Source: an uncultured Actinomycetes bacterium (GTDB taxonomy: Bacteria; Actinomycetota; Thermoleophilia; Solirubrobacterales; Thermoleophilaceae). From it: 64,000 nt of DNA. Location: assembly GCA_963724205.1 (NCBI GenBank), contig CAVRTK010000004.1, forward strand, positions 303,830 through 367,829. Direction: 5' to 3'. Below are positions 20,508-58,884 of this stretch, piece after piece. Every line of letters starts with the position of its first letter. The first letter of the stretch is position 1. Made by a program: the position numbers and the translations under genes. Below the pieces are notes generated by a model, which saw nothing but the letters and a program-made list of their open reading frames with translations, was not told the origin of the DNA and searched no databases.

Positions 20508-21674
<1,167 letters not shown>

Positions 21675-30915: not shown

Positions 30916-30930
30916 ACCCTGGACCAGCGG

Positions 30931-31375: not shown

Positions 31376-31376
31376 C

Positions 31377-32194
31377 TCAGCTCTCGCGGTCGGGCACGCG
31401 CGACAGCTCCACGTGCCCGTTGGGCTGCTCGGCCGTTGCCGCCGGCGCCGACACGCGGTCAAGGAACGGCTGGAGCAGGTCGAGCGGCAGCGGGAACACG
31501 ATCGTCGAGTTCTGCTCGGCGCCGATCTCGAGCAGCGTCTGGAGGTAGCGCAGGTGCAGCGCCGACGGCTCGCGGCCGATGATCGCCGCGGCGTCGGCCA
31601 GCTTCTCGGCGGCCTGGAACTCGCCCTCGGAGTTGATGATCTTGGCCCGTCGCTCGCGCTCCGCCTCGGCCTGGCGGGCCATCGCCCGCTGCATCGCCTC
31701 GGGGATCTCGACGTCCTTGATCTCGACGGTCGAGACCTTGATCCCCCACGGCTCGGTCTGCTCGTCGATGATCTGCTGCAGATCCTCGTTCAGGCGCTCG
31801 CGCTCGGACAGCAGCTGGTCGAGGTCGGCGCGCCCGAGCACCGAGCGCAGCGTCGTCTGCGCGATCTGCGACGTGGCCGGCTCGAACGCCTCGATCTCCG
31901 TGACCGCGGCGACCGGATCGATCGCCTTGAAGTAACAGACGGCCGCGACGCGTGCCGGGACGTTGTCGCGCGTGATCACCTCCTGCGGCGGGATCGTGAG
32001 CGTGACGGTGCGCAGGTCGACGCGCACCATCCGGTCGACCAGCGGGATCAGCAGCACCAGGCCCGGGCCCCTTGACCGGCAGCAGGCGCCCGAGGCGGAA
32101 CACGACCGCGCGCTCGTACTCGCGCAGGACGCGGATGCTGACGAGCGCCGCCAGCAGCACCACCAGGACGAGGCGCAGCGAGGACGTAGATCAT
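31377..32194 (-). CDS. SPFH/band-7 (stomatin/prohibitin-like) membrane protein, two 1-nt indels near the 5' end
   Basis: AGGAGG RBS 10 nt upstream of the ATG at 32194. After removing one base about 32160 and one about 32055 it reads [65 protein letters not shown]...; the coiled-coil tail [25 protein letters not shown] is typical of the family. Confidence 0.8.
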
Positions 32195-32699
32195 CGGAAG
32201 GGTGCCTCCTGGTTCGACGCATGCGCAACCCGTGCGAAGGCGTGGGCTCCGGGAAGCCCGCCGGATGCGCACGCAGGTCGCGCAGCATCCAGCGGCCCAC
32301 CCCAAGCATGACCGCGATCAGCGCCAGCAACAACGCGGCTTCGGCGGGATCGTGGTTTCTCACGCCGCCCACCGTCAGGACGAAGACCGCCAGCGCCAGC
32401 AGCATCAGGGCGATCCCGCGGTGGAAGCGCCCCGCCTCGGAGTGCGGCCACGGGTCGAGCGGGCGCACGATCTCGCGACCCACGTCCGAGTCCGTGCACC
32501 TGTCCTTGCGCGGGCACCCGTTGCAGATGTGGGCCTTCGCCCGGTAGCGGACCAGCCGGCGCTCGTGGTCGAACTCGTGGGGCCACAGGTGCTGGCCCTC
32601 CGGGCACGTCCAGTGGTCGTGCACGTCGTCGTAGTCAAAGCCCGCCGTCCGGAACCGAAGCGCCCGCCGGTGCGTGTGCGCCGACAGCCACTCGAGCAT
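32195..32699 (-). pseudogene. chimeric ORF: IS1182/IS5-type transposase zinc-ribbon fragment followed by two hydrophobic segments (transposase remnant)
   Basis: [19 protein letters not shown]...[32 protein letters not shown] matches the F.YD...D.Y.CP.G..L ... YRA....C..CPL...CT.S..GR.I.R signature of the internal region of IS1182-type DDE transposases. No DDE domain is present. Its frame runs into the SPFH gene. Confidence 0.4.
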
Positions 32700-32756
32700 G
32701 AGCGCCGCCAGCAGCAGGAAGCACGCCGTAGCCCGCGAACAGGAGGGCCTCCCCGC

Positions 32757-35094: not shown

Positions 35095-35144
35095 GAATTC
35101 CCTCCTCGGAAGACCGGAGGGACGGTTTTACACCACCTGGCCGA

Positions 35145-35954
35145 CTACGTCAGGCCTGCGTCGGCTCTTCCGAGCCCGACAGCTCGCGCACCGCGGCCTC
35201 GGGATCGGGCGCCCGCATCACGGTCTCGCCGATCAGGACGGCGTCGACGCCGACGCGCTCCAGCTCCTCGATCTGCGCGCGGTTCTGGATGCCGGACTCC
35301 GACACGACGGTCTTGCCGGCGGGGACGTCGGTCAGCAGCTCGTAGGTCGTCTCGAGCGAGACCGTGAAGTCGACCGAGGTCGCGGTTGTTGATCCCGACC
35401 ACGTCGCAGTCGATCTCGAGCGCGCACTCGAGCTCCTCCTCGTCGTGCACCTCGACGATCGCGTCCAGGTCGAGGTCGTCGGCGATCGCGTGCAGCTCGC
35501 CGAGGTCGCGGACCTTCAGCGACCCGACCACCAGCAGAACCGCGTCCGCGCCGTACGCCTTGGCCTCGTACAGCTGGTACGGGTCGATCGTGAAGTCCTT
35601 GCGCAGGATCGGCAGGTCGGTCGCCGCCCGCGCCTCGCGCAGGTCCTCGAGCGACCCGCCGAAGTGGCGCTCCTCGGTGAGGATCGACAGCGCCGCCGCG
35701 CCGCCGCGGTCGTAGGCCCGGACCACGTCGGCCACGCTCGCGTCCGGCCGGATGTCGCCCGCGGAGGGGGAGCGCCGCTTGTACTCGGCGATCACCGACG
35801 TCCACGGCCGGGACAGGGCCTCCGAGAACGGCCTGCCCTCGAGCGTCATGCGCTGCTCGATCGCGCGCTCGAGCTCGGCGAGCGGGCGCTCGCGCTTGAC
35901 GCGGTCCAGCCGGTCGCGCGTCGAGTCGATCAGGTCGTCGAGCCGTATCGCCAT
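35145..35954 (-). CDS. trpC: indole-3-glycerol-phosphate synthase, C-terminal frameshift about 35390
   Basis: RPFSEAL...VIAEYKRRSPSAGDI; ALSILTEERHFGGSLEDL; LPILRKDFTIDPYQLYEA; VGINNRDL. Confidence 0.85.
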   Translation of the reverse strand: MAIRLDDLIDSTRDRLDRVKRERPLAELERAIEQRMTLEGRPFSEALSRPWTSVIAEYKRRSPSAGDIRPDASVADVVRAYDRGGAAALSILTEERHFGGSLEDLREARAATDLPILRKDFTIDPYQLYEAKAYGADAVLLVVGSLKVRDLGELHAIADDLDLDAIVEVHDEEELECALEIDCDVVGINNRDLGRLHGLARDDLRAADRRPRRQDRRVGVRHPEPRADRGAGARRRRRRPDRRDRDAGARSRGRGARAVGLGRADAGLT

Positions 35955-35957
35955 CGC

Positions 35958-36989
35958 TCAGACCGCCGCCAGCTTGTTCGTGCGCTCCACGTACCGCTCC
36001 ATCGCGTCGGACGCCGCCCCCGAGTCGATCGCCTCGCGGGCGGCGGTCACGCCGCCGGCCAGCGAGTCGGCGGCACCGCCCACGTAGATCGCCGCGCCGG
36101 CGTTCGCCAGCGTCAGCTCGCGCTCCGGGCAGGTCTCGCCGGACAGCACGGAGCGGGCGATGCGCGCGTTCTCTTCGGGCACGCCGAAGCGAATGGCGTC
36201 CGCGGGCACTCGTTCGACCCCCAGCTCCTCGGGCGTCACTGCGTAGCTGTCGATCTCCCCATCCCTCAGCTCGACACAGCGGGTCTCGTCCGAGACGCTG
36301 ATCTCGTCGAGCCCATCGACGCTGGAAACTACCAACGCGCGCCGACCCCCCAACTCGCCGAGCGCCGCCGCGATGGTCTCCAGGAAGCTGGGCTCGGAGA
36401 CGCCGATCACCTGCCGCTCGGCTCCTGCCGGGTTGGTCAGCGGGCCGAGGAAGTTGAAGATCGTGCGCACCGCGAGCTCCTTGCGCACCGGCACGACGTG
36501 GCGCATCGCCATGTGGTGGTGCGGCGCGAACATGAACCCGAAGCCGACCGAGCGGATGCAGTCGGCGACGGCGTCCGGCTCCAGGTCGATCTGAGCTCCC
36601 AGTGCCTCGAGCAGGTCGGCGGACCCGGACTTGCCGGTGGCCGAGCGGTTGCCGTGCTTGGCGACCGTGCAGCCCGCGCCGGCCGCCACGAAGGCGGCGG
36701 TGGTCGACACGTTGAACGTGGGCCGTCCGCCGCCCGTGCCGGCGGTGTCGAGCAGCGCGGCGCGATCGCCGACGTCGACCGACCGGGCGAGCGACCGCAT
36801 GGTCTGGGCCAGCCCCACGATCTCGTCGACGGTCTCGCCCTTCGTGCGCAGCGCGATCAGGAACGCGGCCGCCTGCGCCTCCGACGTGCGCCCCTCCATG
36901 ACCTCGCGCAGCACCGCGGCGGCCTCCTCGCGCGCGAGCGCCTGGCCGGAGGCGAGCCGGTCGATCGCCTGGGTGAGGGTGTCGTTGGG

Positions 36990-36992
<3 letters not shown>
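35958..36992 (-). CDS. trpD: anthranilate phosphoribosyltransferase
   Basis: Intact 344-aa ORF. LDTAGTGGGRPTFNVSTTAAFVAAGAG...KHGNRSATGKSGSADLLEALG. Confidence 0.9.
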
Positions 36993-37560
<568 letters not shown>

Positions 37561-37564
<4 letters not shown>

Positions 37565-39062
37565 GCCCACTCCCGCTGCCTGCAGGCCAGCTCGATGGCG
37601 GCCATCACGGCCCCGGCCTTCGCCTCGGTCTCGCGCACCTCGTAGTCGGGCTCCGAGTCGACGACGATCCCGCCCCCCGCCTGAAGGTGCACGCGCCCGT
37701 CCTTGACGACCGCGGAGCGGATGTAGATGCACGAGTCGAGGTCGCCGGAGTAGGACAGCCAGCCGATCGCCCCTCCGTAGGGGCCGCGGGACACGGGCTC
37801 GAGCTCGTCGATGATCTGCATCGCGCGGACCTTCGGCGCGCCGGACAGCGTCCCTGCCGGGAGCGACGCGCGCATGGCGTCCATCGACGTCACGCCGTCG
37901 CGCAGCGTGCCGGACACCGACGAGACGATGTGCATGACGTGCGAGTAGGTCTCGACGACCATCAGCTCGTCGACCTGGACGCTGCCGTACTCGCACACCC
38001 GGCCCAGGTCGTTGCGGCCCAGGTCGACCAGCATCACGTGCTCGGCGCGCTCCTTGTCGTCGGCCAAGCAGCGACTCGGCGACGCGCATGTCCTCCTCGA
38101 CGGTCGCCGCCCGCGGGCGGGTGCCGGCGATCGGCCGCTGGGCGGCCCGCCGGCCGGTGACGGTGCACCAGCGACTCGGGCGACGCGCCCGCTATCTCGA
38201 AGTCCTCGAAGTCGAGGAAGTACATGTAGGGCGACGGGTTGACGTTGCGCAGGCCGCGGTAGATCGAGAACGCCTCGACGGGCGTCTCCGCCGACCAGCG
38301 CTGGCTCGGCACGACCTGGTAGGCGTCGCCCGCGCGGATGTACTCCTTGACCCGGTCGACCGCCGCGGCGTAGCCGTCGCTTCCGATGTTCGACTCGAAC
38401 GCGGGCATGTCGCGCACGCCCGCCTGCGCCCGGGGCAGCGGCCCGGCCAGCCGGTCGCGGACGTCGGCGATGGCGACCACCGCGTGCGCGTACGCGGTCT
38501 CCACGTCGGAGTCCGGGCCGGTGAAGACGTTGGCCAGGATCGTGGTCTCGTGCTTGAAGTGGTCGAACGCCACGATGATGTCGGAGACCATCAGCGCCAT
38601 GTCGGGGACGCCGACCGGGTCAGGGTTCGGGTCGCCGACCGTGGGCTCGGCGTAGCGCACCAGGTCGTAGCCGAACAGGCCGACCGCGCCGCCCGAGAAC
38701 GGCGGCAGGTCGGGCAGCGGAGCGGGCTTGTAGCGCTCCAGCTCGGCCGCGACCGCCGCGTAGGGGTCGTCGAACGGCCGCGTCTCCCCGCCCACGGTCA
38801 GCACGCCGTGCTCCAGCCGCATCGTGGTCCGCGGCTGGACGCCCAGGAACGACCAGCGCCCGACGCGCTGCCCCTGCTCGGCCGACTCCAGCAGGAACGA
38901 CGGGCCGTCCCCGCGCAGCTTGAGGTAGGCGGACACCGGGGTCTCGACGTCGTCGATGAACGTGTGCCGCAGCGGGACGACCGTGTGGTCGCGCGCGAGA
39001 GCGCGGACCTCGTCGAGGCTGGGGCCTACCTGGAGGTCGGCCGTGTCGGCGCTCGGGATCAC
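37561..39062 (-). CDS. trpE: anthranilate synthase component I, frameshift about 38080–38160
   Basis: N-terminal 340 aa and C-terminal 168 aa ([20 protein letters not shown]...[20 protein letters not shown]...[22 protein letters not shown]) are in different frames. Confidence 0.85.
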
Positions 39063-39102: not shown

Positions 39103-39822
39103 GTGCAGCGCGGCTTGGCGCGCGCGGGATCACTGACGGAACGGTTGCGCCCCCGGGCCGTGCGCGCCGCGCTGGCGCTCTGGGAGCGGACCGGCCGCCG
39201 GCCCGTCGCCCGCCTGTACCAGCACGACCTGATCGCAAAGACCGGCAACTTCGCCACCACCTCGTGGCTGGGGACGCCGATCTGGCAGAACGTCCTGGAC
39301 CTGTGGACGATCCAGGAGACGATTGCCGAGCTGCGTCCGGGCCTGCTGATCGAGACTGGCACCAACCGCGGCGGATCCGCCCTGTTCTACGCGCACCTGA
39401 TGGACCTGCTCGGGCACGGCCAGGTGCTGACGATCGACATCGAGAGGCTGCACTCGTTGAACCACCCGCGGGTCGAGTTCGTGCTCGGCGACTCCGCCTC
39501 CGAGGCGGTCGCGGCCAGGGCGCGCGAGGCGGCCGCGTCCGCCGACGGGCCCGTGATGGTGATCCTCGACGGCGACCACTCGCGCGAGCACGTGGCGCGC
39601 GAGCTCGAGCTGTACGCGCCGCTCGTGACGACCGGGAGCCTCCTGCTCTCACAGGACGGGATCATCGACGAGTCACCGTTCTTCCGCGACACGCGGCCGG
39701 GGCCGCTCCAGGCGAACCGCGACTTCCTGGCCCGCCACCCCGACTGGGAGCACGACCGTGAGCGCAACGAGCGCTTCCTGCTGACCCAACACCCGGTGGG
39801 CTGGCTGCGGCGGCTTCGCTGA
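39103..39822 (+). CDS. CmcI ('cephalosporin hydroxylase') family class I SAM-dependent methyltransferase, sugar O-methyltransferase-like
   Basis: Intact ORF. WLGTPIWQNVLDLWTIQETIAELRPGLLIETGTNRGGSALFYAHLM...VLTIDIE, then VMVILDGDHSREHV, is the CmcI-family signature. Confidence 0.8.
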   Translation: MQRGLARAGSLTERLRPRAVRAALALWERTGRRPVARLYQHDLIAKTGNFATTSWLGTPIWQNVLDLWTIQETIAELRPGLLIETGTNRGGSALFYAHLMDLLGHGQVLTIDIERLHSLNHPRVEFVLGDSASEAVAARAREAAASADGPVMVILDGDHSREHVARELELYAPLVTTGSLLLSQDGIIDESPFFRDTRPGPLQANRDFLARHPDWEHDRERNERFLLTQHPVGWLRRLR

Positions 39823-39844
39823 ACGGTGGGATGATCGCGTCGTC

Positions 39845-40597
39845 ATGAAGGGAGCCTTTCGCCGCATCCTCGGCCGCGGGAGCGCACCCGCGCCGAACCC
39901 GGACGCCGCGACGGTCGATCCACGCGACCGCGCGATCGTCGAGCGCGTGCAGCCGTACACGATGACCGGCGAGGCTCGCATCCTCGCGCTGATCGACGCC
40001 GTCCGGTACGTGGTCGCGCGCGACCTGCCCGGAAGCTTCGCCGAGTGCGGTGTCTGGCGGGGAGGCTCGCTGCTGACGATGATCGCGACGCTCCAGGAGA
40101 TCGGCGTGGACGACCGCGACATCCACGGGTACGACACGTTCGAGGGCATGACCGAGCCAACCGAGAAGGACACGTCGGCGCTCGAGAAGCCCGCGCTCGA
40201 GACTTGGTCTGCGGCCCAGGCGGCCGGCGAGCGCGCCTGGCCCTACCTGTTCGGCGCCAACGTCTTCGACGAGGAGGCCGTGCGCGCGACGTTGCTGGAG
40301 ACCGGCTACCCGGCCGAGCGGATTCACCTCCACCGCGGGCCGGTCGAGGAGACGATTCCCTCCCGGTCGCCGGGCCCGCTCGCGCTCCTGCGCCTGGACA
40401 CCGACTGGTACGAGTCGACTCGCCACGAGCTCGATCACCTGTACCCGTTGCTGGCTCCGGGCGGCGTGCTGATCGTGGACGACTACGGGCACTGGGAGGG
40501 CGCACGCCGTGCCGTCGACGAGTACATGGCCGAGCAGGGGTCGCCCCTGCTGCTCAACAGAATCGACTACACGGGCCGGGTCGCGGTCAAGCCCTGA
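39845..40597 (+). CDS. TylF/MycF (macrocin O-methyltransferase) family sugar O-methyltransferase
   Basis: Intact ORF. VARDLPGSFAECGVWRGGSLLTMIATL...LALLRLDTDWYESTRHELDHLYPLLAPGGVLIVDDYGHWEGARRAVDEY is the TylF-family metal-dependent O-methyltransferase signature. Confidence 0.85.
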   Translation: MKGAFRRILGRGSAPAPNPDAATVDPRDRAIVERVQPYTMTGEARILALIDAVRYVVARDLPGSFAECGVWRGGSLLTMIATLQEIGVDDRDIHGYDTFEGMTEPTEKDTSALEKPALETWSAAQAAGERAWPYLFGANVFDEEAVRATLLETGYPAERIHLHRGPVEETIPSRSPGPLALLRLDTDWYESTRHELDHLYPLLAPGGVLIVDDYGHWEGARRAVDEYMAEQGSPLLLNRIDYTGRVAVKP

Positions 40598-41462
40598 GCA
40601 GGCGCCGGAGCAGCCCCGGCCGCGGCGGGTCGTCCTCGAGCTCGACGTCGGGCCAGGGCGTCGCGCGGCGGTGTTCGAGGTAGAGCTCGCGGCCCTCGGG
40701 GTCACCGCGGCGATGCCAGGGCTTGTTGGCGGCCGGCCCCTCGAAGTGGCGGATGCCCGGGCGCTCCCGCGCCTCGGCGACCTGCTCGGCACCGAACACG
40801 TCCTTCGCCGACTCCCATTGCATCACCGAGTTCATGCAGTTCCAGCGCGGGTGCAACGGCGTCCGCCGCTCCCCGAGAACCACGTTCAAGGCGTCCTGGT
40901 CGAGCCAGCCGAGCAGGTCGGCGTTCGCCGTCGAGTAGTCGATCAGCCGGCGCGTGCAGCCGTCGCGCCGCCAGGCCGCGAGGTTCATCAGCAACACGCC
41001 CGCGTTGAAATAGACCTCGGGACCGCTCAGTCCGAGCTCGAGGTGCCGCTCCATGTCGTTGTGCTGCATGACGTTGGTGACGGCGGCCAGCCAGTGGTCG
41101 CCGAGCTCGGTCTCCCACAGCGGCACCAGCGAGTCCATCGCGAGCGTGTCGACGTCCAGGTACAGGATGCGCGCGTCGCTCCCCAGCAGCTCGGGCAGGA
41201 AGATCCGGTACCACGAGGCCTGCGTCAACAGCGTGTTGGTCGGCAGTCCCGCGATACGCGAGTCGGGGATCGCGTGGAACTCGATATGCGGCACGACCTG
41301 CGCCAGACGGTCGCGCCAGGCGGCCTCGAACCCGGGCCCGTGGAGATAGTGCACGCGGACGTCCATGCCGCCGGCGTTGGCCAGGACCGAGCGCAGCATC
41401 GCCGCGCTGTGTGCGGCGTAGCGCTCGCCCTCGGCGGCGCACGCCACGAGGAGCTCGCTCAC
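40587..41462 (-). CDS. glycosyltransferase family 8 (LgtC/GSPA-like retaining glycosyltransferase)
   Basis: VHYLH...HIEFHAIP...ASWYRIFLPELL...RILYLDVDTLAMDSLVPLW...YFNAGVLLMNLAAWR (DxD motif in LDVDTL). The likely GTG start at 41462 overlaps the stop of the upstream methyltransferase (GTGA). The ORF track extends to 41600. Confidence 0.8.
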   Translation of the reverse strand: MSELLVACAAEGERYAAHSAAMLRSVLANAGGMDVRVHYLHGPGFEAAWRDRLAQVVPHIEFHAIPDSRIAGLPTNTLLTQASWYRIFLPELLGSDARILYLDVDTLAMDSLVPLWETELGDHWLAAVTNVMQHNDMERHLELGLSGPEVYFNAGVLLMNLAAWRRDGCTRRLIDYSTANADLLGWLDQDALNVVLGERRTPLHPRWNCMNSVMQWESAKDVFGAEQVAEARERPGIRHFEGPAANKPWHRRGDPEGRELYLEHRRATPWPDVELEDDPPRPGLLRRLLRA

Positions 41463-42181
41463 TCCGGCCGCTCCGCTATCACTCCGAAGATCAGCGCGTT
41501 CAGCCGCCGCGACTCGCGGCTCGTCAAGCGGTCGGCCAGGACGATCAGCAACTGCATGACATAGCCGACCGGCCGGTGCGCACCGGGGGGCAGCTTCCAC
41601 AGCACGGCGTCCTGGACGAGCTGAAGCCCCGTCGCCCCGAGGCCGATGACCCCCTCGAAGCGCCGCACCTCGAAGCCGGCGTCCTCGACCGCTCGGCGGA
41701 GTCCCTGGCAGGTCCAGCGCCAGTAGTCGACGGGATCGGGGTGCCAGACGAACATCCCGTGCGTCGTCAGCAGGAGGCGGCCGCCGGGCCGCAGGACGCG
41801 AAAGGACTCGCGCAGGTAGGTCTCGGGGTCGCCGACGTGTTCCAGGACCTGCGTCGAGATGACCACGTCGCAGCTTGCGTCGGCGACCGGCACCGTCCCG
41901 TCGGGAGCGATATGCACGTTCGCGTCGTCGTTGCCCGGCAGGTCCGCAGCCAGGTAGTCCGCGTCGGCCGGGAAGAGGTGCCGGTAGGGAAGCTCCGCAC
42001 AGCCGTAGTCGAGGACCCGGCGGGGGTGCGGCAGATCACGAGCGAGGATCTCGATGGCCGCCGGCAGCACTCGGGCGAGGTACGCGAGCCGATGCCAGCG
42101 TGGGACTGTGCGGACGTTCGGCCGGTCCGCGGCAAACGTGGGCACGGGCGGGATCGTACGAGGTCGCGCGCGGGCCCGCAT
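41461..42181 (-). CDS. class I SAM-dependent methyltransferase (Methyltransf_11-like)
   Basis: VLDYGCAELPYRHL...DVVISTQVLEHVGDPETYLRESFRVLRPGGRLLLTT. The true start is probably internal; the 42181 start would sit 15 bp from the divergent flippase start. Confidence 0.8.
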
Positions 42182-42195
42182 GCCACCCTTCGCAC

Positions 42196-43665
42196 ATGGA
42201 GGCGAGCGAGAGCCTGCGCGTCCGTGCCGCTCGCGGCACGATGGTCAACGCGGCGTTCGAGGTCGGGCTCCAGGCGCTGAGCCTGCTCAAGGGCTTCGTC
42301 ATCGCTGCGTTCCTCACCCGCACCGAGTTCGGGCTCTGGGGGATCCTCGTCGTCACGATCGGGATGCTGGCCTGGCTGAAGGAGGTGGGGATCAGCGAGA
42401 AGTTCGTCCAGCAGGACGAGCCGGACCAGGAGGTCGCGTTCCAGAAGGCGTTCACGTTCGACATGGCCACGAACCTCGCGCTGATGGCGCTGATGCTCGT
42501 CCTGCTGCCGCTGTTCGCGTTGCTCTACGACCAGTGGGATCTGATCGCACCCGGCCTCGTGATCATCGCCACGCTGCCCGCCTACTCCCTGCGCGCCCCC
42601 GCCTGGATCTACTACCGCGACATGCGCTATGCCCGCCAGCGCCTGCTCGAGGCGGCCGACCCGGTGGTCGCGTTCGCGGTGTCGGTCGCATGCGCGATCG
42701 CCGGCCTCGGCTACTGGAGCCTGGTGGTCGGTGTGTTCTGTGGGGCCTGGGCGGCGGCCCTGGTCGCGGTCGCGGCATCGCCCCACCCGATCCGGTGGCG
42801 CTGGCACCGGGCGTCGGCGCGCGAATACTTCTCGTTCTCCTGGCCGCTCTTCGTGGCGAGCGTGTCCGGGCTCATGATCCCGCAGCTCTCGGCGCTGTTC
42901 GGCAACGCGATCGTGGGTCTGGCCGGCGTGGGCGCGATCGCGCTGGCGGCCACGATCTCCAACTACACCGACCGGGTCGACCAGGTCATCACCTGGACGA
43001 TCTACCCCGCGATCTGCCGCGTCAGCGACCGGGTGGACCTGATGTTCGAGGCGTTCGTCAAGACCAACCGTCTGACCCTGATGTGGGGCCTGCCGTTCGG
43101 GATCGGCGTGGCGCTCTTCGCGGACGACCTGGTCGACTACGTGATCGGCGCCGAGTGGGAGCCTGCCGTCGGGATCATCCAGGCTTTCGGGCTCATCGCC
43201 GCGCTCAACCACATCGGCTTCAACTGGGCGGCGTTCTACCGGGCGCGGGGCGACACCCGGCCGCTGGCCGTGTCGGCGCCGATCGTGCTCGCCGCGTTCG
43301 CCGCGTTCGCGCTGCCCGGCATGATCGCCTGGGGCCTCGACGGCTTCGCGGCGGGCCTGGCGCTGATGGCACTCACCTCGCTGGTCGTCCGCACCGTCTA
43401 CCTGCGCCGGCTGTTCCGCGGCTTCCGGATGCTCCCCCACGCCGTGCGCTCGATCGCGCCGACGGTGCCTGCCGTCGCCGCCGTGCTGATCGTCCGCCTG
43501 TTGGTCGACCAGCGCACGGCGGGCATCGCGGCCGCCGAGCTGGTCCTGTACCTGGCCCTCACGGCGGCTGCGACGCTGTGGCTCGAGCGCGCGTTGCTGC
43601 GCGAGGCGATCGGCTACCTGGCCGGACGCGGCGCCCCGGCGGATGCCGTCGCGGCCCGCGCCTGA
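42196..43665 (+). CDS. Wzx-like oligosaccharide flippase / polysaccharide biosynthesis protein (MOP superfamily)
   Basis: Intact protein of about 490 aa with 12–14 hydrophobic helices, starting MEASESLRVRAARGTMVNAAFEVGLQALSLLKGFVIAAFLTRTEFGLWGILVV..., the typical PST-family N-terminus. Confidence 0.8.
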   Translation: MEASESLRVRAARGTMVNAAFEVGLQALSLLKGFVIAAFLTRTEFGLWGILVVTIGMLAWLKEVGISEKFVQQDEPDQEVAFQKAFTFDMATNLALMALMLVLLPLFALLYDQWDLIAPGLVIIATLPAYSLRAPAWIYYRDMRYARQRLLEAADPVVAFAVSVACAIAGLGYWSLVVGVFCGAWAAALVAVAASPHPIRWRWHRASAREYFSFSWPLFVASVSGLMIPQLSALFGNAIVGLAGVGAIALAATISNYTDRVDQVITWTIYPAICRVSDRVDLMFEAFVKTNRLTLMWGLPFGIGVALFADDLVDYVIGAEWEPAVGIIQAFGLIAALNHIGFNWAAFYRARGDTRPLAVSAPIVLAAFAAFALPGMIAWGLDGFAAGLALMALTSLVVRTVYLRRLFRGFRMLPHAVRSIAPTVPAVAAVLIVRLLVDQRTAGIAAAELVLYLALTAAATLWLERALLREAIGYLAGRGAPADAVAARA

Positions 43666-43690
43666 GGCCCCCGCACTACGCTGCCCCGGG

Positions 43691-44401
43691 ATGGACGTTC
43701 TCGAGCACGCCGGCCAGATCTCCTGGTACCACGCGATGGAGCTGGAGCCCGGGCGCAAGACCGACGCGATGTTCGACCTGGAGCCGTTCGTACACCGCTA
43801 CGGGCTGCCGGAACGGCTCGACGGGCTGCGCTGCCTCGACGTCGGCACCTGGGACGGCTACTGGGCGTTCGAGATGGAGCGCCGAGGCGCGGCCGAGGTG
43901 GTCGCGCTCGACCTGGACGACGAGCGCGAGCTCGACTGGCCCCCGCGCCGGCGCCCGGCCACGTTCAACGAAACGCCCCGCGGCGCGGGCTTCCGGCTGG
44001 CGCACGAGGCCTTCGACTCGAAGGTCGAGCGCGTGGTCCGGTCGATCTACGAGGCGTCGCCCGACGAGCTCGGGAAGTTCGACCTGGTGTTCTGCGGATC
44101 GGTGCTGATCCACCTGCGCGACCAGTTGCTCGCGCTCGAGCGGATCGCCGGGCTGTGCCGCGGCACGTTCATATCGGCCGAGGCCTACGACCCGCTCACC
44201 CGCCTGCTGCCGATCGCCGTGTCGCGCTATCGCGCCGACGTCGACGAGGACGTGGTCTTCTGGCGGCCCAACCCGCGCGCCTGGCGCCGGATGCTGTGGA
44301 CCGCGGGATTCGACCGGGTGGAGCGCCACGGGATGTTCAAGCTGCAGGCGGCCGCGGGCTGGTCGGTCCCCCACGTCGTCCATCACGCCCACACGAACTG
44401 A
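43691..44401 (+). CDS. class I SAM-dependent methyltransferase
   Basis: LRCLDVGTWDGYWAFEM (motif I); KFDLVFCGSVLIHLRDQLLALERIAG. Intact ORF. The start is taken at MDVLEHAGQISWYH. Confidence 0.7.
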   Translation: MDVLEHAGQISWYHAMELEPGRKTDAMFDLEPFVHRYGLPERLDGLRCLDVGTWDGYWAFEMERRGAAEVVALDLDDERELDWPPRRRPATFNETPRGAGFRLAHEAFDSKVERVVRSIYEASPDELGKFDLVFCGSVLIHLRDQLLALERIAGLCRGTFISAEAYDPLTRLLPIAVSRYRADVDEDVVFWRPNPRAWRRMLWTAGFDRVERHGMFKLQAAAGWSVPHVVHHAHTN

Positions 44402-44404
44402 CCG

Positions 44405-44814
44405 ATGCCCGTGGACGCCGGGGCCGCCGCTCTCCAGATCCGCGTCGCCCGGCCGACCGACCGCCTGGACGAGGTGCGGCGCTTCTACTGCGACGGCCTG
44501 GGGCTGGACGAGCTCGGCTCGTTCGACGACCACGACGGCTACTCGGGCGTGTTCATCGGGCTCCCTGGCACGGACCTGCACCTGGAGTTCACTTCCCACA
44601 CCGACGGGTCCCCGTGCCCGGCGCCCACCGCCGACAACCTGCTGGTCTTCTACGTCGGGTCGGTGGAGGCGCGCGACGGACTGGTCGCCCAGCTCGCCGG
44701 CATGGGCGTTACCACGTGCCGCCGGAGAACCCGTACTGGGAGTCGGTGTCTGCGCTGACGTTCGAGGACCCGGACGGCTGGCGGGTCGTGCTCGTGCCGA
44801 ACGCGGGGATCTAG
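44405..44814 (+). CDS. VOC (glyoxalase/bleomycin-resistance) family protein, C-terminal frameshift about 44710
   Basis: LQIRVARPTDRLDEVRRFYCDGLGLDELGSF...HLEF. The C-terminus ...FEDPDGWRVVLVPNAGI* is in a second frame. Confidence 0.65.
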
Positions 44815-44817
44815 GGC

Positions 44818-45675
44818 CTAGGCGTCCACGGGCGCTGGCGCTCGCGTCCCCGCGACGGCGCCGGCGACGGCGGCGGTGACCAGCGCGATTCCCGCCAGCT
44901 CGCGGGCGCCCAGCGACTGGTCGAGCACCAGGAAGCCGGCCAGCGAGGCGACCGCCGGCTCGAGCGACAGGAGCACGCCGAAGACGTGCTCGGGCAGCAG
45001 CCGCAGCGCCTCGAACTCGGCCGAGTACGGGATCGCCGACGACAGCACCGCCACCGCGAAGCCGATCAGGAGGACCTCCGGGTCGAGCAGCGCGTCGCCC
45101 GCCGTGGGTATGCCCACCGGCATCAGCATCACGGCCGCGATGCACATCGCAAGCGCCAGGCCGTCGCCGCGGTCGAAGGCACGGCCGGTCCGCGCGCTCA
45201 GCAGGATGTAGGCGGCCCAGCAGCCACCGGCCATGAGCGCGAACAGCACGCCCAGCGGGTCGAGGTCGCTCGTGCCGGGCGCCGAGATCAGCAGGATCCC
45301 CACCGCCGCGAACGCGACCCAGAGCAGGTCGACCGGCCGCCGCGACCCGAAGATCGCGATGGCGAGCGGGCCGACGAACTCGAACGTCACGGTCAGCCCG
45401 AGCGGGATGCGCTGGATGGCCTCGTAGAAGCACAGGTTCATCACGGCGAGCGACAGTCCGAACGCGGCGACCAGCAGCCAGTCGTCGCGCGAGTGCCCGC
45501 GGACCGGCGGCCGCCACAGCGCCGCCAGCAGGACCGCCGCGAACAGCACGCGAAGGAACACCGTGCCCGCCGGCCCGGCTTCGTCGAACAGCGTCTTGGC
45601 CAGCGCGGCGCCGAACTGCACGGACCCGACGGCGACGAGTACCAGGAGGAGCGCGCGCGGCGACGAGTCCCTCAT
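44818..45675 (-). CDS. EamA/DMT-family transporter
   Basis: Ten hydrophobic helices with the EamA pattern (ALAKTLFDE...; FEFVGPLAIAIFGS; IPYSAEFEALRLL). The ORF starts at MRDSSPRALLLVLVAVGSVQF; the upstream part of the ORF-track frame is Arg-rich junk. Confidence 0.75.
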   Translation of the reverse strand: MRDSSPRALLLVLVAVGSVQFGAALAKTLFDEAGPAGTVFLRVLFAAVLLAALWRPPVRGHSRDDWLLVAAFGLSLAVMNLCFYEAIQRIPLGLTVTFEFVGPLAIAIFGSRRPVDLLWVAFAAVGILLISAPGTSDLDPLGVLFALMAGGCWAAYILLSARTGRAFDRGDGLALAMCIAAVMLMPVGIPTAGDALLDPEVLLIGFAVAVLSSAIPYSAEFEALRLLPEHVFGVLLSLEPAVASLAGFLVLDQSLGARELAGIALVTAAVAGAVAGTRAPAPVDA

Positions 45676-46843
45676 CGTCGCTCCGCCTCCGCGATCCAGC
45701 CGGCCAGCCGGGCCGCCTCCCGGGCGGCGTCGCAGTGCTCGGCCACGTGGGCCCGACCGGCGCGCCCCATCGCCGCGCGCTCGGCCGCCGGCAGCGCCAG
45801 CAGCTCGTCGATCGCGATCGCCAGCGCGGCGGCGTCGCCCGGCGGGACCAGCCGCCCCCACTCGGGCCGGACGACCTCGGGCAGCCCCACCTCGTCGGAG
45901 GCGACGACCGGCACCTCCATCGCCAGCGCCTCCTTGACCACCACCGGCATCGTGTCGCGGTCGCCGTCGGCGGCGACGACGCACGGCAGCGGCCAGCAGG
46001 TCCGCCTGCTCCAGCAGGCCCCGCACGTCGCGCGGCGCGAGCTCGCCGGGGAACTCGGCGACGCCGCCCAGGCCGGCGTCGCGCGGCCTGGCTCTCGAGC
46101 TCGGCGCGCAGCGGCCCGTCGCCGGCGATCACCAGCCGGTCGAGCCGCACGCGGGCCGCCGCGTCGATCAGGTGCCGGAGCCCCTTCTTCTCCACCAGGC
46201 GGGCGATCGCGACCACCGTTCGCCCGCCCGGGTAGGGCGACGCACGCTGGAACGCCGCCGGGTCGACGCCCATCACCAGCGTGCGCGCCTCGACGCCGAA
46301 CCGCTCGCGCAGGTAGCGGGCGCTGTACTCGCACGCGGTCGCGGCGAACGCCGCGTGCTCGTGCTTCTCGCGCAGGTTGGCCGGCGCCGCGAAGACGTCG
46401 TAGCCGTGGGTCATCACGCTGTACGGCCGGCCCAGCAGCGCGCCGATCCGCATCGCGTCGAGCGCCGCGCCACCGGCGAAGTGCGCGTGCAGGTGCCCGC
46501 TCCCGTCGCGGGCGGCGCGCCGCACCGCGGGCGCGAGCGTGCGCAGGCGGCGCACCCCCTCCTCCCGCCTCCAGCGGCGCTGTCCGGCGACGTCGCGCGC
46601 GACGCCGAGCGGATGGCGGGCGGCGAGCCACGCCAGCGCACGGACACGGCGGCCGAGGGAGTCGTCGCTCCGGTAGGCGACCGGGATCCCCGCCGGGACG
46701 TCGGGGTTGGGCCGGGCGGCGCGGCGGAACGACTCGACGCGGACGTCGAGCCCGAGCCTGCGCAGCGCGTCGGCCTCGTTCGCGACGAACGTCTCCGATA
46801 CCTCGGGGAACGACTCGACGACCTCCGTCACCCGCGTGCTCAT
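45672..46843 (-). CDS. glycosyltransferase family 4 (GT-B, retaining), frameshift about 46000–46080
   Basis: N-terminus MSTRVTEVVESFPEVSETFVANEADALRRLGLDV...HLHAHFAG... and C-terminus ...EALAMEVPVVASDEVGLPEVV (the EX7E region) are in two frames. Confidence 0.75.
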
Positions 46844-46865
46844 GCCGGGCCGCCGCGAGCGGCGG

Positions 46866-47840
46866 TCACAGCATGACCGTCCGGTAGCGGACGCTGCCGG
46901 CGATCATCGCGGCGAGCTCCGAGGCGTCGACCGCGACCGTGCCGGGCAGCTCCGCGACCGCCCGCAGGCGCCCGATCCCCCGGGCTCGGCGATCGGGCAG
47001 CGCGTAGAGCACGTAGGGCGCCGTCCACAGGAGCGCAGCGGGCTGGCGGCGGGTCAGCGCGAGCCCGGCGAGCGCGAACAGCATCCACATGTGGCGGTGC
47101 TGCCAGAACACCCTCCGGTGCAGGTGCGCCCGCTGCTCGGGATGGCGCTTGACCACCTTCGGCAACGTCTGCCAGCGGGCGTTGAACCTGATGGCCTCGA
47201 GCAGCGAGAACTCGTCGCAGGCGTGGTAGACGAGCGCGCCCGGCTCCCCGGTGTACCCGTAGCCGGCCTTCTCCGCGCGCAGCTTCAGGTCCAGGTCCTC
47301 TCCCGCGCCGGTGATCGACTCGTCGAAGCCGTTCACCTCCTCGAGCGCGGCGCGCGGGTAGAGGATGTTGCAGGTCTGCGCGTGCGGGCCGGGCGGGTCG
47401 TCCTCGTCGATCGACCGCGCGCGCGGCGATCGCATCAGGACGTCGGCCTCGAGCGGGTCGGGCTTGGTCCGCCCCTGGACGATCGACCGCGGGTGGCGCC
47501 GGGCGGCGGCCAGCAGCGTCTCGAGCCAGGCGGGCTCGGGTCGCGTGTCGTCGTCGGTGAACGCGATCGTGGCCGCCCGCGCCGCGCGCCACGCGGTGTT
47601 GCGCTGGCGCGATGCGGTGCCGGTGCCGGGCTCAAGGTGCAGATGGCGCAGGACACCGGCCCTCGCCAGCTCGTGCTCGCGCAGAACGCGCTCGGTGTCG
47701 TCGGTCGAGTCGTGGACGACGACCAGCTCCCAGCGCTCGCGGGCCAGGGTCTGCGCCGCGAGCGCGTCGAGCAGCCGCTCCAGCCGCCACGCGCGCTCGT
47801 GCGAGGGGACGACGACCGATATCTCGGGCTGCCCAGCCAT
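46866..47840 (-). CDS. glycosyltransferase family 2 with C-terminal hydrophobic region (polyprenyl-phosphate sugar transferase-like)
   Basis: Intact 324 aa. ISVVVPSHERAWRLERLLDALAAQT...ELVVVHDSTDDT...TDDDTRPEPAWL (DXD). C-terminal helices HMWMLFALAGLALT / LLWTAPYVLYAL. Confidence 0.8.
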   Translation of the reverse strand: MAGQPEISVVVPSHERAWRLERLLDALAAQTLARERWELVVVHDSTDDTERVLREHELARAGVLRHLHLEPGTGTASRQRNTAWRAARAATIAFTDDDTRPEPAWLETLLAAARRHPRSIVQGRTKPDPLEADVLMRSPRARSIDEDDPPGPHAQTCNILYPRAALEEVNGFDESITGAGEDLDLKLRAEKAGYGYTGEPGALVYHACDEFSLLEAIRFNARWQTLPKVVKRHPEQRAHLHRRVFWQHRHMWMLFALAGLALTRRQPAALLWTAPYVLYALPDRRARGIGRLRAVAELPGTVAVDASELAAMIAGSVRYRTVML

Positions 47841-47860: not shown

Positions 47861-48481
47861 CTAGCGGCGCCGCGCGTTCAGCTCGGCGAACGCGTCCTCG
47901 AGCGTCAGGTCGCGCGCGGCCATGAGGACGCTCAGGTGGTAGAGGACGTCGGCCGCCTCGGAGGCGACGCGCTCGTCGGTCTCCTCGCGCGCGGCGCGGG
48001 CGACCTCCTCGGCCTCCTCCTCGACCTTCTGGCCGATGAACGGCGGGTCGGCCAGCAGCCTGGCGGTGTACGAGCCGCCGTCGGCCGCCGCCCCCCGCCG
48101 CTCGGCGATCGTGCGCTCCAGCGCGGGCAGCGCCTCGTGCGGCGCGGTCGCCTGCGTGTCGCCGTTGTGGAAGCAGGTGCGCTCGCCGGTGTGGCACGCC
48201 GGCCCCGCGGGCTCGACGAGCGCGAGCAGCGCGTCGGAGTCGCAGTCGTAGCGGAGCGCGCGCACGGCCAGCGTGTTGCCGGACGTCGCGCCCTTGTGCC
48301 ACAGCTCGGCGCGCGAGCGCGACCAGAACCAGGCCTGGCCCGACTCGATCGTCCGGCCCAGGCTGTCCGCGTTCATGTAGGCCAGCGTCAGGACCTCGCC
48401 CGTGCGCCAGTCCTGGACGACGCACGGCGCCAGGCCCTGATCGTCCCAGGCGATCTGGGCGGGATCGACGCTCGTTTCCAT
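47861..48481 (-). CDS. hisIE: bifunctional phosphoribosyl-AMP cyclohydrolase / phosphoribosyl-ATP pyrophosphatase
   Basis: Intact 206 aa. The HisI region ([22 protein letters not shown]...[19 protein letters not shown]...CDSDALL) is fused to a HisE-like C-terminus (SYTARLL...[11 protein letters not shown]...[11 protein letters not shown]). Confidence 0.85.
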
Positions 48482-58684: not shown

Positions 58685-58884
58685 CCCACCGGGCTGCGGC
58701 CATCGTAGAGGCGGCAGGCGGCAATGGCGACCGACTGCCATACGCGCTTAACAAAACGATCGGCGCGGGCCGAAAACCGCTCTGTGCTGCGGTTCTCGGG
58801 CCCGCTTGAGCAGGCCGCGGGACTCCCTGGACATCCGTCCGCCCGCCCTGCGTCGACCCTCGGGACCGTCCGACCACACTGGGA

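What the first reader, a model, noticed from the sequence alone, without database searches (positions are those of the whole stretch)
39103..47840. Methyltransferase-rich glycan cluster with a Wzx flippase but no polymerase, ligase or priming phosphoglycosyltransferase: candidate pathway for a heavily O-methylated oligosaccharide or glycolipid
Ten co-localised genes: a CmcI-family methyltransferase, a TylF/MycF-family sugar O-methyltransferase, two further class I SAM methyltransferases, GT8, GT4 and GT2 glycosyltransferases, a Wzx-like flippase, an EamA exporter and a VOC protein. The GT2 has a C-terminal membrane region like polyprenyl-phosphate sugar synthases. CmcI- and TylF-type enzymes are best known for O-methylating deoxyhexoses on natural products and on mycobacterial glycolipids (established for those families). 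Four methyltransferases for three glycosyltransferases implies a short, densely methylated glycan. There is no Wzy, WaaL, WecA/WbaP homologue or nucleotide-sugar synthesis gene in the window, so the acceptor (lipid, protein or S-layer) and the priming step are unknown. I do not recognise this specific gene combination as a described system.
Basis: partly seen in the sequence, partly recalled or inferred. Interest (0 to 1): 0.75.

Follow-up and report, generated by a model that had tools for sequence, protein, structure and literature searches.

The report
Methyltransferase-rich surface-glycan gene cluster
This is a real but fairly ordinary piece of a cell-surface sugar-chain pathway from an uncultured soil actinobacterium (class Thermoleophilia); it is unusually rich in sugar-methylating enzymes, and the "missing" starter and polymerase genes sit next to the same genes in related genomes.

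Summary
All ten family assignments hold under HMM search. No priming transferase, Wzy/ligase, Wzz or nucleotide-sugar gene lies anywhere in the 64 kb window.

Three details of the observation fail:
- The GT4 gene is split over three reading frames by two single-base indels.
- The VOC gene carries one frameshift.
- The GT2 has no C-terminal membrane helices.

The window as a whole has many indels (about 90 frame switches; polA is in 10 or more pieces), so these breaks are probably assembly errors.

VOC and the RhtA-like EamA exporter never accompany the other genes in 88 related loci and are probably bystanders. The other eight genes recur. A Thermoleophilaceae MAG carries orthologues of seven of them within 12 kb.

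The triad TylF methyltransferase, GT8 and class-I methyltransferase is conserved across Thermoleophilia, Acidimicrobiia and some Proteobacteria. It is usually extended by a NanM-like and an FkbM methyltransferase, giving one GT8 plus four methyltransferases.

Related clusters also carry a WbaP-type priming enzyme, Wzz, Wzy_C proteins and PMT-family GT-C enzymes. The locus is therefore best read as one variable segment of a Wzx-dependent envelope-glycan pathway whose partner genes lie elsewhere in this genome. A syntenic relative has a glycan locus of different content at the same site next to trpE.

Verdict: a new member of a known kind, of moderate interest.

The parts
39103..39822 (+). CmcI / rhamnosyl-O-methyltransferase-family SAM methyltransferase (239 aa)
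   Evidence: PF04989 at 168.8 bits, covering 5-205 of 206 profile positions. NCBIfam rhamnosyl O-MT equivalog scores 138 bits, below its cutoff of 400. Orthologue in L002 at 64% identity.
39845..40597 (+). TylF/MycF/NovP-family sugar O-methyltransferase (250 aa)
   Evidence: PF05711 at 148 bits. The LRLDTDWYEST and DDYGHW Asp motifs align with 4cdz, NovP and MycF and are invariant in 17 orthologues. P0001 is 100% identical.
40587..41462 (-). GT8 retaining glycosyltransferase, LgtC-like (291 aa). It is convergent with the TylF gene; their 3' ends overlap by 11 nt.
   Evidence: PF01501 at 127 bits. LgtC (1g9r) scores 102 bits. DVD and HFEGPAANKPW motifs are visible in the translation. The start overlaps the MTa stop.
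41459..42181 (-). Class I SAM methyltransferase 'MTa' (240 aa), the conserved partner of the TylF gene
   Evidence: Methyltransf_23/11. Found beside or near the TylF homologue in 29 of 82 loci across phyla. No close solved relative.
42196..43665 (+). Wzx-type MOP flippase (489 aa, about 14 TM segments)
   Evidence: PF13440 at 132 bits and PF01943. NCBIfam O-glycosylation Wzx, WzxC and TuaB models all score below their cutoffs. 14 hydrophobic segments. 69% identity to the L084 Wzx.
43691..44401 (+). Class I SAM methyltransferase 'MTb' (236 aa), adjacent to Wzx
   Evidence: Methyltransf_23. P0122 is 100% identical at 236 aa. Sits next to Wzx in the window, L084, L085, L086/87 and L007. The automated 'CmoB' name is not supported: 23.6 bits against a cutoff of 209.
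44405..44811 (+). YycE-like VOC/glyoxalase-fold protein with one frameshift near 44707; probably a bystander
   Evidence: PF22658 at 89.6 bits, but the C-terminal domain matches only 1-29 of 55 positions. The rest is in another frame. Never co-located with the other genes in related loci.
44818..45675 (-). EamA/DMT transporter, RhtA-like (285 aa, 10 TM). Its start overlaps the GT4 stop, but it is not conserved with the cluster.
   Evidence: PF00892. RhtA model NF007823 scores 217 bits, E=2e-64, below its cutoff of 354. ATGA overlap with the GT4 stop. Absent from all 88 related loci.
45672..46843 (-). GT4 glycosyltransferase (EpsE/TuaC/PimB'-like), split over three frames by two single-base indels (about 46081 and about 45991)
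   Evidence: Frame plot and three-frame translation. The 390-aa reconstruction aligns end to end with the L005 GT4 at 59% identity and the L073 GT4 at 55%. PimB' scores 54 bits.
46866..47840 (-). GT2 glycosyltransferase (324 aa), soluble or peripheral; it starts 20 nt downstream of the hisIE stop codon
   Evidence: PF00535 and PF13641. MftF and EpsD models score about 115 bits, below their cutoffs. No TM segment. Best PDB hits are K4CP, TarP/TarS and PglI. Orthologues lie next to PMT-family GT-C genes in L002, L073 and L086.
37561..39062 (-). Left boundary: trpE (frameshifted), first gene of trpE-G-D-C (35145-39062)
   Evidence: Anth_synt_I_N and Chorismate_bind, then GATase, Glycos_transf_3 and IGPS. 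Same flank in the syntenic relative L084.
47861..48481 (-). Right boundary: fused hisIE, on the same strand as GT2-GT4-EamA and immediately upstream of them
   Evidence: PRA-CH and PRA-PH domains. The gap to the GT2 start is 20 nt.

Best explanation
Eight of the ten genes are one segment of a Wzx-dependent pathway for an O-methylated cell-envelope glycan in an uncultured Thermoleophilia bacterium. They are the CmcI-like MT, TylF-like MT, GT8, MTa, Wzx, MTb, GT4 and GT2.

Proposed mechanism:
1. A polyprenyl-diphosphate-sugar primer is made by a WbaP-type phosphoglycosyltransferase encoded elsewhere in this genome (inferred from relatives).
2. On the cytoplasmic face of the membrane the primer is extended by the GT2 (inverting), the GT4 and the LgtC-like GT8 (both retaining) (inferred from family membership).
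3. The conserved TylF-GT8-MTa triad installs one alpha-linked hexose and methylates it. CmcI and MTb add further O-methyl groups from SAM (inferred from conserved gene linkage and family chemistry).
4. Wzx flips the finished lipid-linked unit (inferred).
5. Outside the membrane it is polymerised or transferred by Wzy_C/Wzz or PMT-like GT-C proteins, which lie next to the same genes in relatives but are not in this window (inferred).

The locus sits at a conserved chromosomal site next to trpE. Its gene content differs between relatives, as in O-antigen or capsule loci. VOC and the RhtA-like EamA are bystanders, and the GT4 and VOC frameshifts are most likely assembly errors.

Shown here: family memberships, gene order, recurrence, absence of partner genes from the window, and their presence in relatives. 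Inferred: substrates, order of steps, and the final acceptor.
For: - Families.
- Recurrence of the gene set: L002 has orthologues of 7 of 8 genes at 45-68% identity within 12 kb. L005 has GT2, GT4, TylF, GT8, MTa and Wzx; L013 has TylF, GT8, MTa, Wzx and GT4.
- Triad and cassette conservation across Thermoleophilia, Acidimicrobiia, Mycobacteriales MAGs and gammaproteobacteria.
- Partner genes in relatives: PGT (TIGR03025, 348 bits) in L009, with homologues in L003 and L088; Wzz and Wzy_C in L088; Wzy_C and three PMT-family GT-C genes in L086/87.
- Variable content at a conserved site: L084 shares MoxR, SNF2 and trpCDGE at 74-84% nucleotide identity with the window. It then carries TylF, GT8, MTa, Wzx and MTb interspersed with different genes, including an acyltransferase and NanM-like and FkbM MTs.
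- Composition of the cluster matches the rest of the window.
- Frameshifts are a window-wide feature that includes polA, trpB and trpE. The joined GT4 is full length and collinear with orthologues.
Against: - No biochemical data exist for any member.
- MTa and MTb have no characterised close relatives, so sugar O-methylation by them rests on context alone.
- In L083 the GT8 + 4-MT cassette stands alone, with no Wzx or other GT within 10 kb. The cassette's acceptor therefore need not be a polyprenyl-linked glycan.
- EamA is translationally coupled to the GT4 through an ATGA overlap, which argues for some functional link.
- The window gives 39 kb on one side and 16 kb on the other without any priming or polymerase gene, and the rest of the genome could not be retrieved.
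- If the GT4 frameshifts are real, the pathway is broken in this organism.
Confidence: 0.6

Rival explanations
1. The locus makes a short, non-polymerised, methylated oligosaccharide. Wzx flips it and it is transferred en bloc to proteins (S-layer or general O-glycosylation) or to a lipid, as in the Bacteroidota O-glycosylation loci.
For: - There is no Wzy or Wzz in the window.
- The best NCBIfam hit of the Wzx is the 'O-glycosylation flippase' model.
- The T. forsythia locus has the same layout: wzx + 5 Gtf + 3 Mtf, with no polymerase.
- Wzy_C domain proteins and PMT-family GT-C enzymes in relatives belong to families that include protein O-oligosaccharyltransferases and protein O-mannosyltransferases (my own knowledge of the families, not tested here).
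Against: - The Wzx hit scores 85 bits against a cutoff of 720.
- L088 carries a Wzz chain-length regulator next to Wzy_C, which points to polymerisation.
- No acceptor protein or oligosaccharyltransferase is identifiable in the window.
Confidence: 0.2
2. The cluster is a decaying or non-functional remnant: GT4 and VOC are true pseudogenes and the partner genes have been lost.
For: - Two frameshifts in GT4 and one in VOC.
- No initiator, polymerase or GT-C in the window.
- Compared with relatives, the cassette here lacks the NanM-like and FkbM methyltransferases.
Against: - Frame switches are far denser in housekeeping genes of the same window, such as polA, trpB, trpE and livHMGF. The translated sequences are otherwise undamaged, which is the signature of assembly indels.
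- The joined GT4 has no stops and aligns end to end with orthologues.
- The other seven glycan genes are intact.
Confidence: 0.1
3. The locus makes a cytoplasmic polymethylated polysaccharide analogous to the mycobacterial MGLP/MMP, which bind lipids inside the cell.
For: - High methyltransferase density together with a GT4.
- The stand-alone cassette in L083 has no exporter nearby.
- PMPS occur in Actinomycetota (PMC9883506).
Against: - Linkage to Wzx is conserved in the window, L002, L005, L009, L013, L084, L085 and L086.
- Relatives carry PGT, Wzz and Wzy_C.
- PDB searches with TylF, MTa, MTb and GT4 listed no chain named MeT1 or ManT at the thresholds used.
- No MmpH-like hydrolase and no GpgS.
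Confidence: 0.05
4. These are tailoring genes for a glycosylated secondary metabolite, carrying out sugar O-methylation as in tylosin, mycinamicin, novobiocin or spinosyn.
For: The TylF and CmcI families (and NanM-like in relatives) are best known from natural-product pathways. The nearest solved structures are natural-product sugar O-MTs.
Against: - No PKS, NRPS, terpene or deoxysugar genes in 64 kb.
- The GTs are GT2, GT4 and GT8, not GT1.
- A Wzx is present, and relatives carry polysaccharide machinery.
Confidence: 0.03

Closest known systems
Wzx/Wzy-dependent heteropolysaccharide loci (O-antigen, capsule, EPS; B. subtilis teichuronic acid tuaA-H)
   Same: A MOP/Wzx flippase clustered with GT2 and GT4 transferases. 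Below-cutoff NCBIfam matches to TuaB/TuaC/TuaG and EpsD/EpsE. Variable gene content at a fixed chromosomal site. Relatives carry a WbaP-type PGT, Wzz and Wzy_C.
   Different: In this window the initiator, polymerase, chain-length regulator and nucleotide-sugar genes are all absent. Methyltransferase density is unusually high: 4 MTs to 3 GTs here and up to 8 MTs per 20 kb in L002. The host is a monoderm actinobacterium with no characterised envelope glycan.
Tannerella forsythia general protein O-glycosylation cluster (wzx, gtfSMILE, mtfJOY; PMC6120980)
   Same: A Wzx plus several glycosyltransferases plus three methyltransferases in one locus, with no polymerase and no priming enzyme. The product is a multiply O-methylated oligosaccharide.
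   Different: Different phylum. The Wzx is only distantly related: 85 bits against a cutoff of 720. There are no nonulosonic-acid genes. No orthology of the GTs or MTs was demonstrated. The acceptor here is unknown.
Natural-product sugar O-methylation sets: TylF, MycF, NovP; SpnG with SpnH/SpnI/SpnK (permethylated rhamnose of spinosyn)
   Same: The TylF-family fold and Asp motifs are conserved. The logic of one glycosyltransferase accompanied by one methyltransferase per free hydroxyl resembles the GT8 + 4-MT cassette. The spinosyn precedent is known to me from the reference title seen and from my own knowledge.
   Different: The GT here is a GT8 (LgtC-like, hexose donor), not a GT1. No aglycone pathway is present. 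The genes are linked to Wzx and polysaccharide machinery. Identity to the solved enzymes is low, at best about 95 bits.
Mycobacterial rhamnosyl/fucosyl O-methyltransferases of PGL and GPL (PF04989 / NF045824)
   Same: The CmcI-family fold: PF04989 at 168.8 bits, and 138 bits to the rhamnosyl O-MT model.
   Different: The score is far below the equivalog cutoff of 400. There are no pks/pps, mmpL or rhamnose-synthesis genes in the window. No Mycobacterium-type glycolipid context.

Membership tests
TylF/MycF/NovP sugar O-methyltransferases (PF05711) | Profile match above the curated threshold over most of the domain | tested here: met
   148.2 bits against a cutoff of 23, covering profile positions 65-259 of 264.
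TylF/MycF/NovP sugar O-methyltransferases (PF05711) | Conserved acidic motifs (LRxDxDxYxST and DDY) that bind the metal and act as base in NovP/MycF (their roles are from my own knowledge) | tested here: met
   D185, D187, D212 and D213 align with the same motifs in 4cdz, 2wk1 and 4x7v. They are invariant in 17 orthologues.
TylF/MycF/NovP sugar O-methyltransferases (PF05711) | SAM-dependent methylation of a sugar hydroxyl | not testable with these tools
   Requires an enzyme assay.
CmcI / rhamnosyl O-methyltransferase (PF04989; NCBIfam NF045824 equivalog) | Pfam family match | tested here: met
   168.8 bits against a cutoff of 23.2, covering 5-205 of 206 positions.
CmcI / rhamnosyl O-methyltransferase (PF04989; NCBIfam NF045824 equivalog) | Equivalog-level score, meaning the same function as the mycobacterial rhamnosyl O-MT | tested here: not met
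   137.8 bits against a cutoff of 400. It is a family member, but rhamnose specificity cannot be claimed.
GT8 retaining glycosyltransferases (PF01501, LgtC-like) | Full-length profile match, plus the DxD and HxxGxxKPW motifs | tested here: met
   127 bits, covering 8-251 of 253 positions. LgtC scores 102 bits. DVD and HFEGPAANKPW are visible in the translation.
Wzx / MOP (PST) flippases | Polysacc_synt profile match and 12-14 transmembrane segments | tested here: met
   PF13440 at 132 bits. 14 hydrophobic segments.
Wzx / MOP (PST) flippases | Equivalog-level match to a characterised flippase (O-glycosylation Wzx, WzxC, TuaB) | tested here: not met
   85 against 720, 70 against 273, and 43 against 580 bits.
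Complete Wzx/Wzy-dependent polysaccharide locus | Initiating phosphoglycosyltransferase (PF02397 or PF00953) in the locus | tested here: not met
   None in the window. Present within 10 kb in relatives L009, L003 and L088.
Complete Wzx/Wzy-dependent polysaccharide locus | Wzy polymerase or Wzy_C protein, and a Wzz co-polymerase | tested here: not met
   None in the window. Present in relatives L086/87 and L088. The rest of this genome could not be retrieved.
   The maximum 19-residue hydropathy is 1.14, so there is no TM segment. PDB hits are K4CP, TarP/TarS and PglI, with no GtrB or DPMS. NCBIfam top hits are MftF and EpsD. The only support is contextual: orthologues lie next to PMT-family GT-C genes in L002, L073 and L086.
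Mycobacterial polymethylated polysaccharide pathways (MGLP/MMP) | Homologues of MeT1/ManT/MmpH or GpgS, and no exporter | tested here: not met
   PDB searches with TylF, MTa, MTb and GT4 listed no chain named MeT1 or ManT at the thresholds used. A Wzx is present and conserved.
Bacteroidota-type general O-glycosylation locus | wzx + Gtf + Mtf genes without a polymerase | tested here: met
   The layout matches the description in PMC6120980.
Bacteroidota-type general O-glycosylation locus | Orthologous Wzx, an identified oligosaccharyltransferase and glycosylated acceptor proteins | tested here: inconclusive
   The Wzx model scores far below its cutoff. No OTase is in the window. Acceptors cannot be tested in silico.

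The most novel reading that the evidence does not exclude
The conserved cassette of one LgtC-like GT8 plus four different methyltransferases is an autonomous module. In most relatives the four are TylF, a NanM-like MT, an FkbM MT and a class-I MT; in this window they are TylF, CmcI, MTa and MTb. The module would add a single alpha-linked hexose and methylate all four of its free hydroxyls, producing a fully O-methylated (2,3,4,6-tetra-O-methyl) hydrophobic cap on envelope glycans of abundant soil Actinomycetota. This would be the hexose counterpart of the permethylated rhamnose of spinosyn and glycopeptidolipids.
Probability: 0.12. Interest if true: 0.6.

Novelty: new member of a known kind. 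Interest (0 to 1): 0.35.

Why it matters
Thermoleophilia are among the commonest soil Actinomycetota, yet nothing is known about their envelope glycans. Homologues of these genes at 65-85% identity are very numerous in soil metagenomes.

If the methyltransferase-dense loci really produce heavily O-methylated surface glycans, this would define a chemical hallmark of the group. According to the discussion in PMC6120980, O-methylation has been proposed to terminate glycan chains and to be a target of innate-immune lectins.

The practical value is modest:
- It gives a defined, widely conserved five-gene cassette that can be tested in culturable carriers.
- It corrects the impression that the pathway lacks initiation and polymerisation steps.

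Tried and rejected
- **Source contig.** I tried to retrieve it by exact-protein look-up with the window TylF protein and with P0001. The rest of the genome therefore could not be searched for partner genes.
- **Literature.** Searches for TylF + GT8 + O-antigen, TylF + polysaccharide + flippase, and Thermoleophilia glycans found no described homologous system. The MMP paper gave no link to these families. PMC2832084 (SpnH/I/K) is not held.
- **Transcription signals.** The promoter/terminator scan gave nothing above the shuffled expectation.
- **RNA genes.** Rfam and tRNA scans of the window found nothing, so there is no tRNA-linked island signature.
- **Horizontal transfer.** The composition profile shows no GC anomaly over the cluster, so recent transfer is not supported.
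- **Strict "exactly four MTs per GT8" rule.** Counts within 7 kb range from 1 to 7 and are inflated by fragmented genes. Only the minimal cassettes (L083, L009, L020 and the window) show four.
- **PMPS-like and natural-product readings.** Both were considered and rejected (see the rival explanations).
- **Failed call.** One Pfam call failed on a stop codon in the query and was repeated.

Full report
**1. Gene calls and state of the sequence**

The window is 72% G+C, so raw ORF lists are dominated by spurious frames. I called genes by third-position GC and by a codon-usage Viterbi path over the six frames.

It also shows that the window has many indels. There are about 99 same-strand frame switches without a nearby stop. 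They are very dense between 3.3 and 38.2 kb: polA is read in 10 or more pieces, and trpB, trpE, trpG, trpC and the liv transporter genes are also split. The stitched translations are nevertheless clean and recognisable.

Only three switches fall inside the cluster:
- Two are in the GT4, near 46081 and 45991.
- One is in the VOC gene, near 44707.

Joining the three GT4 frames gives a 390-aa protein. It aligns end to end, without gaps at the joins, with orthologues in L005 (59% identity) and L073 (55%).

The likeliest reading is uncorrected long-read assembly error rather than pseudogenisation, but this cannot be proved here. The syntenic relative L084, whose contig name looks like a long-read assembler's, is fragmented in the same way.

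**2. The observation**

Pfam confirms every family:

| Gene | Family | Score |
|---|---|---|
| CmcI-like MT | PF04989 | 169 bits |
| TylF-like MT | PF05711 | 148 bits |
| GT8 | PF01501 | 127 bits |
| MTa | Methyltransf_23/11 | - |
| MTb | Methyltransf_23 | - |
| Wzx | Polysacc_synt_3 | 132 bits |
| VOC | YycE-like | - |
| EamA | PF00892 | - |
| GT4 | Glycos_transf_1 | - |
| GT2 | PF00535 | - |

NCBIfam adds resolution:
- The EamA protein is RhtA-like (217 bits, E=2e-64 to the threonine/homoserine exporter model).
- The GT2 resembles MftF and EpsD.
- The GT4 resembles EpsE and TuaC.
- The Wzx resembles O-glycosylation Wzx, WzxC and TuaB.
- The CmcI protein scores 138 bits on the rhamnosyl O-MT equivalog, whose cutoff is 400.

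All of these are below the equivalog cutoffs, so only family-level statements are justified.

Further checks on individual proteins:
- The TylF-like protein keeps the LRLDTDWYEST and DDYGHW acidic motifs. These align with NovP, MycF and 4cdz and are invariant among 17 orthologues.
- The GT8 is closest to LgtC (102 bits).
- The GT2 has no transmembrane-like segment (maximum hydropathy 1.14) and no similarity to GtrB or DPMS. The claimed [quoted passage not shown] is therefore not confirmed.

**3. Surroundings**

On the left is trpE-G-D-C on the minus strand (35145-39062), preceded by a qNor and a Band-7 gene. On the right are fused hisIE (47861-48481, minus strand) and an amidase.

The rest of the window encodes the following, with nothing related to glycans:
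- polA, malic enzyme, a Liv ABC transporter and phosphofructokinase;
- trpF, trpB and trpA, an HtrA protease and a MoxR/DUF58/transglutaminase set;
- an SNF2 helicase, Fur, PhoH, YbeY, Era and a SARP-type regulator.

phmmer with lineage-specific queries taken from relatives finds no homologue among all window ORFs of 50 aa or more. The queries were a WbaP-type PGT, Wzy_C, Wzz, WecG, PMT-like GT-C and a 7-TM protein. The stated absence is therefore real for the window.

Gene junctions:
- hisIE, GT2, GT4 and EamA are co-directional, with gaps of 20 and 22 nt and then an ATGA stop/start overlap.
- MTa and GT8 also overlap.
- TylF and GT8 converge, with 11 nt of overlap.

**4. Who carries it**

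The TylF and MTb proteins have 100%-identical database entries on a 923,567-bp NCBI/ENA contig (P0001 and P0122). That contig could not be retrieved. The nearest named homologues (65-78% identity) are from Thermoleophilaceae and Solirubrobacteraceae MAGs. Hundreds of soil-metagenome homologues exist at 65-85% identity.

**5. Related loci**

I collected 88 loci and screened their six-frame ORFs with the window proteins.

Bystanders:
- VOC and EamA never occur near the other genes.

Recurrence of the gene set:
- L002 (Thermoleophilaceae, GCA_035630015.1) has orthologues of CmcI, TylF, GT8, MTa, Wzx, MTb and GT2 at 45-68% identity within 12 kb.
- L005 has GT2, GT4, TylF, GT8, MTa and Wzx.
- L013 has TylF, GT8, MTa, Wzx and GT4.

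The conserved core:
- The core is TylF followed by convergent GT8 and MTa.
- In most Thermoleophilia and Acidimicrobiia loci, and even in gammaproteobacteria (L017 Zhongshania, L020), two more genes sit between GT8 and MTa. One is a 330-357-aa protein that matches TIGR04371, "putative sugar O-methyltransferase, NanM" (57 bits, cutoff 44). The other is an FkbM-family methyltransferase.
- This makes a cassette of one GT8 and four methyltransferases.
- The window and L002 lack these two genes but have CmcI and MTb instead, again four MTs. However, MT counts near GT8 vary from 1 to 7 across loci, so this is a lead and not a rule.
- In L083 the five-gene cassette stands alone among unrelated genes.
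- MTb lies directly beside Wzx in five loci.

**6. The "missing" machinery**

Relatives carry it next to the same genes:
- L009 has a 703-aa WbaP-type PGT (TIGR03025, 348 bits, above cutoff) 1.3 kb from MTa. L003 and L088 have homologues.
- L088 has WecG, Wzz and Wzy_C.
- L086/87 has Wzy_C and three PMT-family GT-C proteins next to a GT4-GT2 pair whose GT2 matches the window's GT2 (143 bits, E=7e-43), with MTb and Wzx alongside.
- The 13-TM, 684-aa protein of L002 and L073 belongs to the same PMT-like family.

The pathway type is therefore conventional Wzx-dependent export of a lipid-linked glycan. In this genome the partner genes are more than 16-39 kb away.

**7. Variable locus at a fixed site**

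L084 shares MoxR, SNF2 and trpCDGE with the window at 74-84% nucleotide identity. Immediately after trpE it carries a glycan locus that shares TylF-GT8, MTa and Wzx-MTb (71-76% nucleotide identity). It differs in the genes between them: it has an acyltransferase, NanM-like and FkbM MTs and a 7-TM protein, and it has no CmcI. This is the behaviour of a serotype-type surface-glycan locus. The cluster shows no GC anomaly.

**8. Mechanism and rivals**

The best-supported reading is as follows (confidence about 0.6):
1. Eight genes make and decorate a polyprenyl-linked sugar unit on the cytoplasmic face of the membrane.
2. The GT8/TylF/MTa triad installs and methylates an alpha-linked hexose, and CmcI and MTb add further methyl groups.
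3. Wzx flips the unit.
4. Polymerisation or transfer uses enzymes encoded elsewhere.

The rivals and their confidences are:
- a non-polymerised oligosaccharide for protein or lipid glycosylation, as in T. forsythia, whose wzx + 5 Gtf + 3 Mtf cluster has the same layout (0.2);
- a decaying remnant (0.1);
- a cytoplasmic PMPS-like polymer (0.05);
- natural-product tailoring (0.03).

None of the methyltransferase substrates is known. MTa and MTb have no characterised close relatives.

**9. Verdict**

The locus is a new, uncharacterised member of a known kind of system. Its one interesting feature is the widely conserved, methyltransferase-dense GT8 cassette, which is a tractable target for finding heavily O-methylated envelope sugars in soil Actinomycetota.

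Noticed in passing
window 3300-38200 (e.g. polA 3322-6000, trpB/trpF 20503-22372, trpE/trpG 37000-39062): There are very many same-strand frame switches, about one per 350-400 bp, inside housekeeping genes whose stitched translations are otherwise intact. The right 40% of the window, which includes the glycan cluster, has only about a dozen. This looks like uneven long-read assembly error and affects any ORF-based reading of the window.
   Followed up: partly
L001, L005, L008, L009, L011, L017, L020, L083, L084, L085 (around locus coordinate 10000-14300): A widely conserved five-gene cassette: TylF MT, GT8, NanM-like putative sugar O-MT (TIGR04371), FkbM MT and a class-I MT. It occurs in Thermoleophilia, Acidimicrobiia and some gammaproteobacteria, and stands alone in L083. 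It appears to be uncharacterised.
   Followed up: partly
L086/L087 1-7805; L073 5652-14730; L002 14798-16852: Two to three tandem paralogues (three in L073 and L086/87, one in L002) of a 13-TM, roughly 700-aa PMT-family (PF02366) GT-C glycosyltransferase lie next to orthologues of the window's GT2 (each with an adjacent GT4 gene). This hints at an extracytoplasmic glycosylation branch fed by polyprenyl-phosphate sugars, which is absent from the window.
   Followed up: partly
window 30900-35150: A block encoding a quinol-type nitric-oxide reductase (qNor, 819 aa) and a Band-7/SPFH protein is absent from the otherwise syntenic relative L084. The N-terminal part of the Band-7 protein has a weak DDE transposase match. 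Possibly an insertion.
   Followed up: no
window 44818-45675 and 47861-48481: An RhtA-like threonine/homoserine-type exporter is translationally coupled (ATGA overlap) to the GT4. The whole GT2-GT4-EamA string follows hisIE with a 20-nt gap. The glycan genes may therefore have been inserted into an amino-acid-related operon between hisIE and trpE.
   Followed up: partly
window 43691-44401 and homologues P0123-P0241: MTb homologues are annotated in bulk by JGI as 'tRNA (mo5U34)-methyltransferase' (CmoB). The CmoB models score only about 23 bits against cutoffs of 209-275, and the gene sits beside Wzx in five loci. This is a likely systematic mis-annotation.
   Followed up: partly
window 56642-58750, minus strand: Fragments of a large secreted protein are spread over several frames. 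The region was left uncalled by the coding model.
   Followed up: no
L005 3-2316: CysN/CysD-like sulfate adenylyltransferase genes lie directly beside the GT2 orthologue in one relative, suggesting sulfation of the glycan in that lineage.
   Followed up: no
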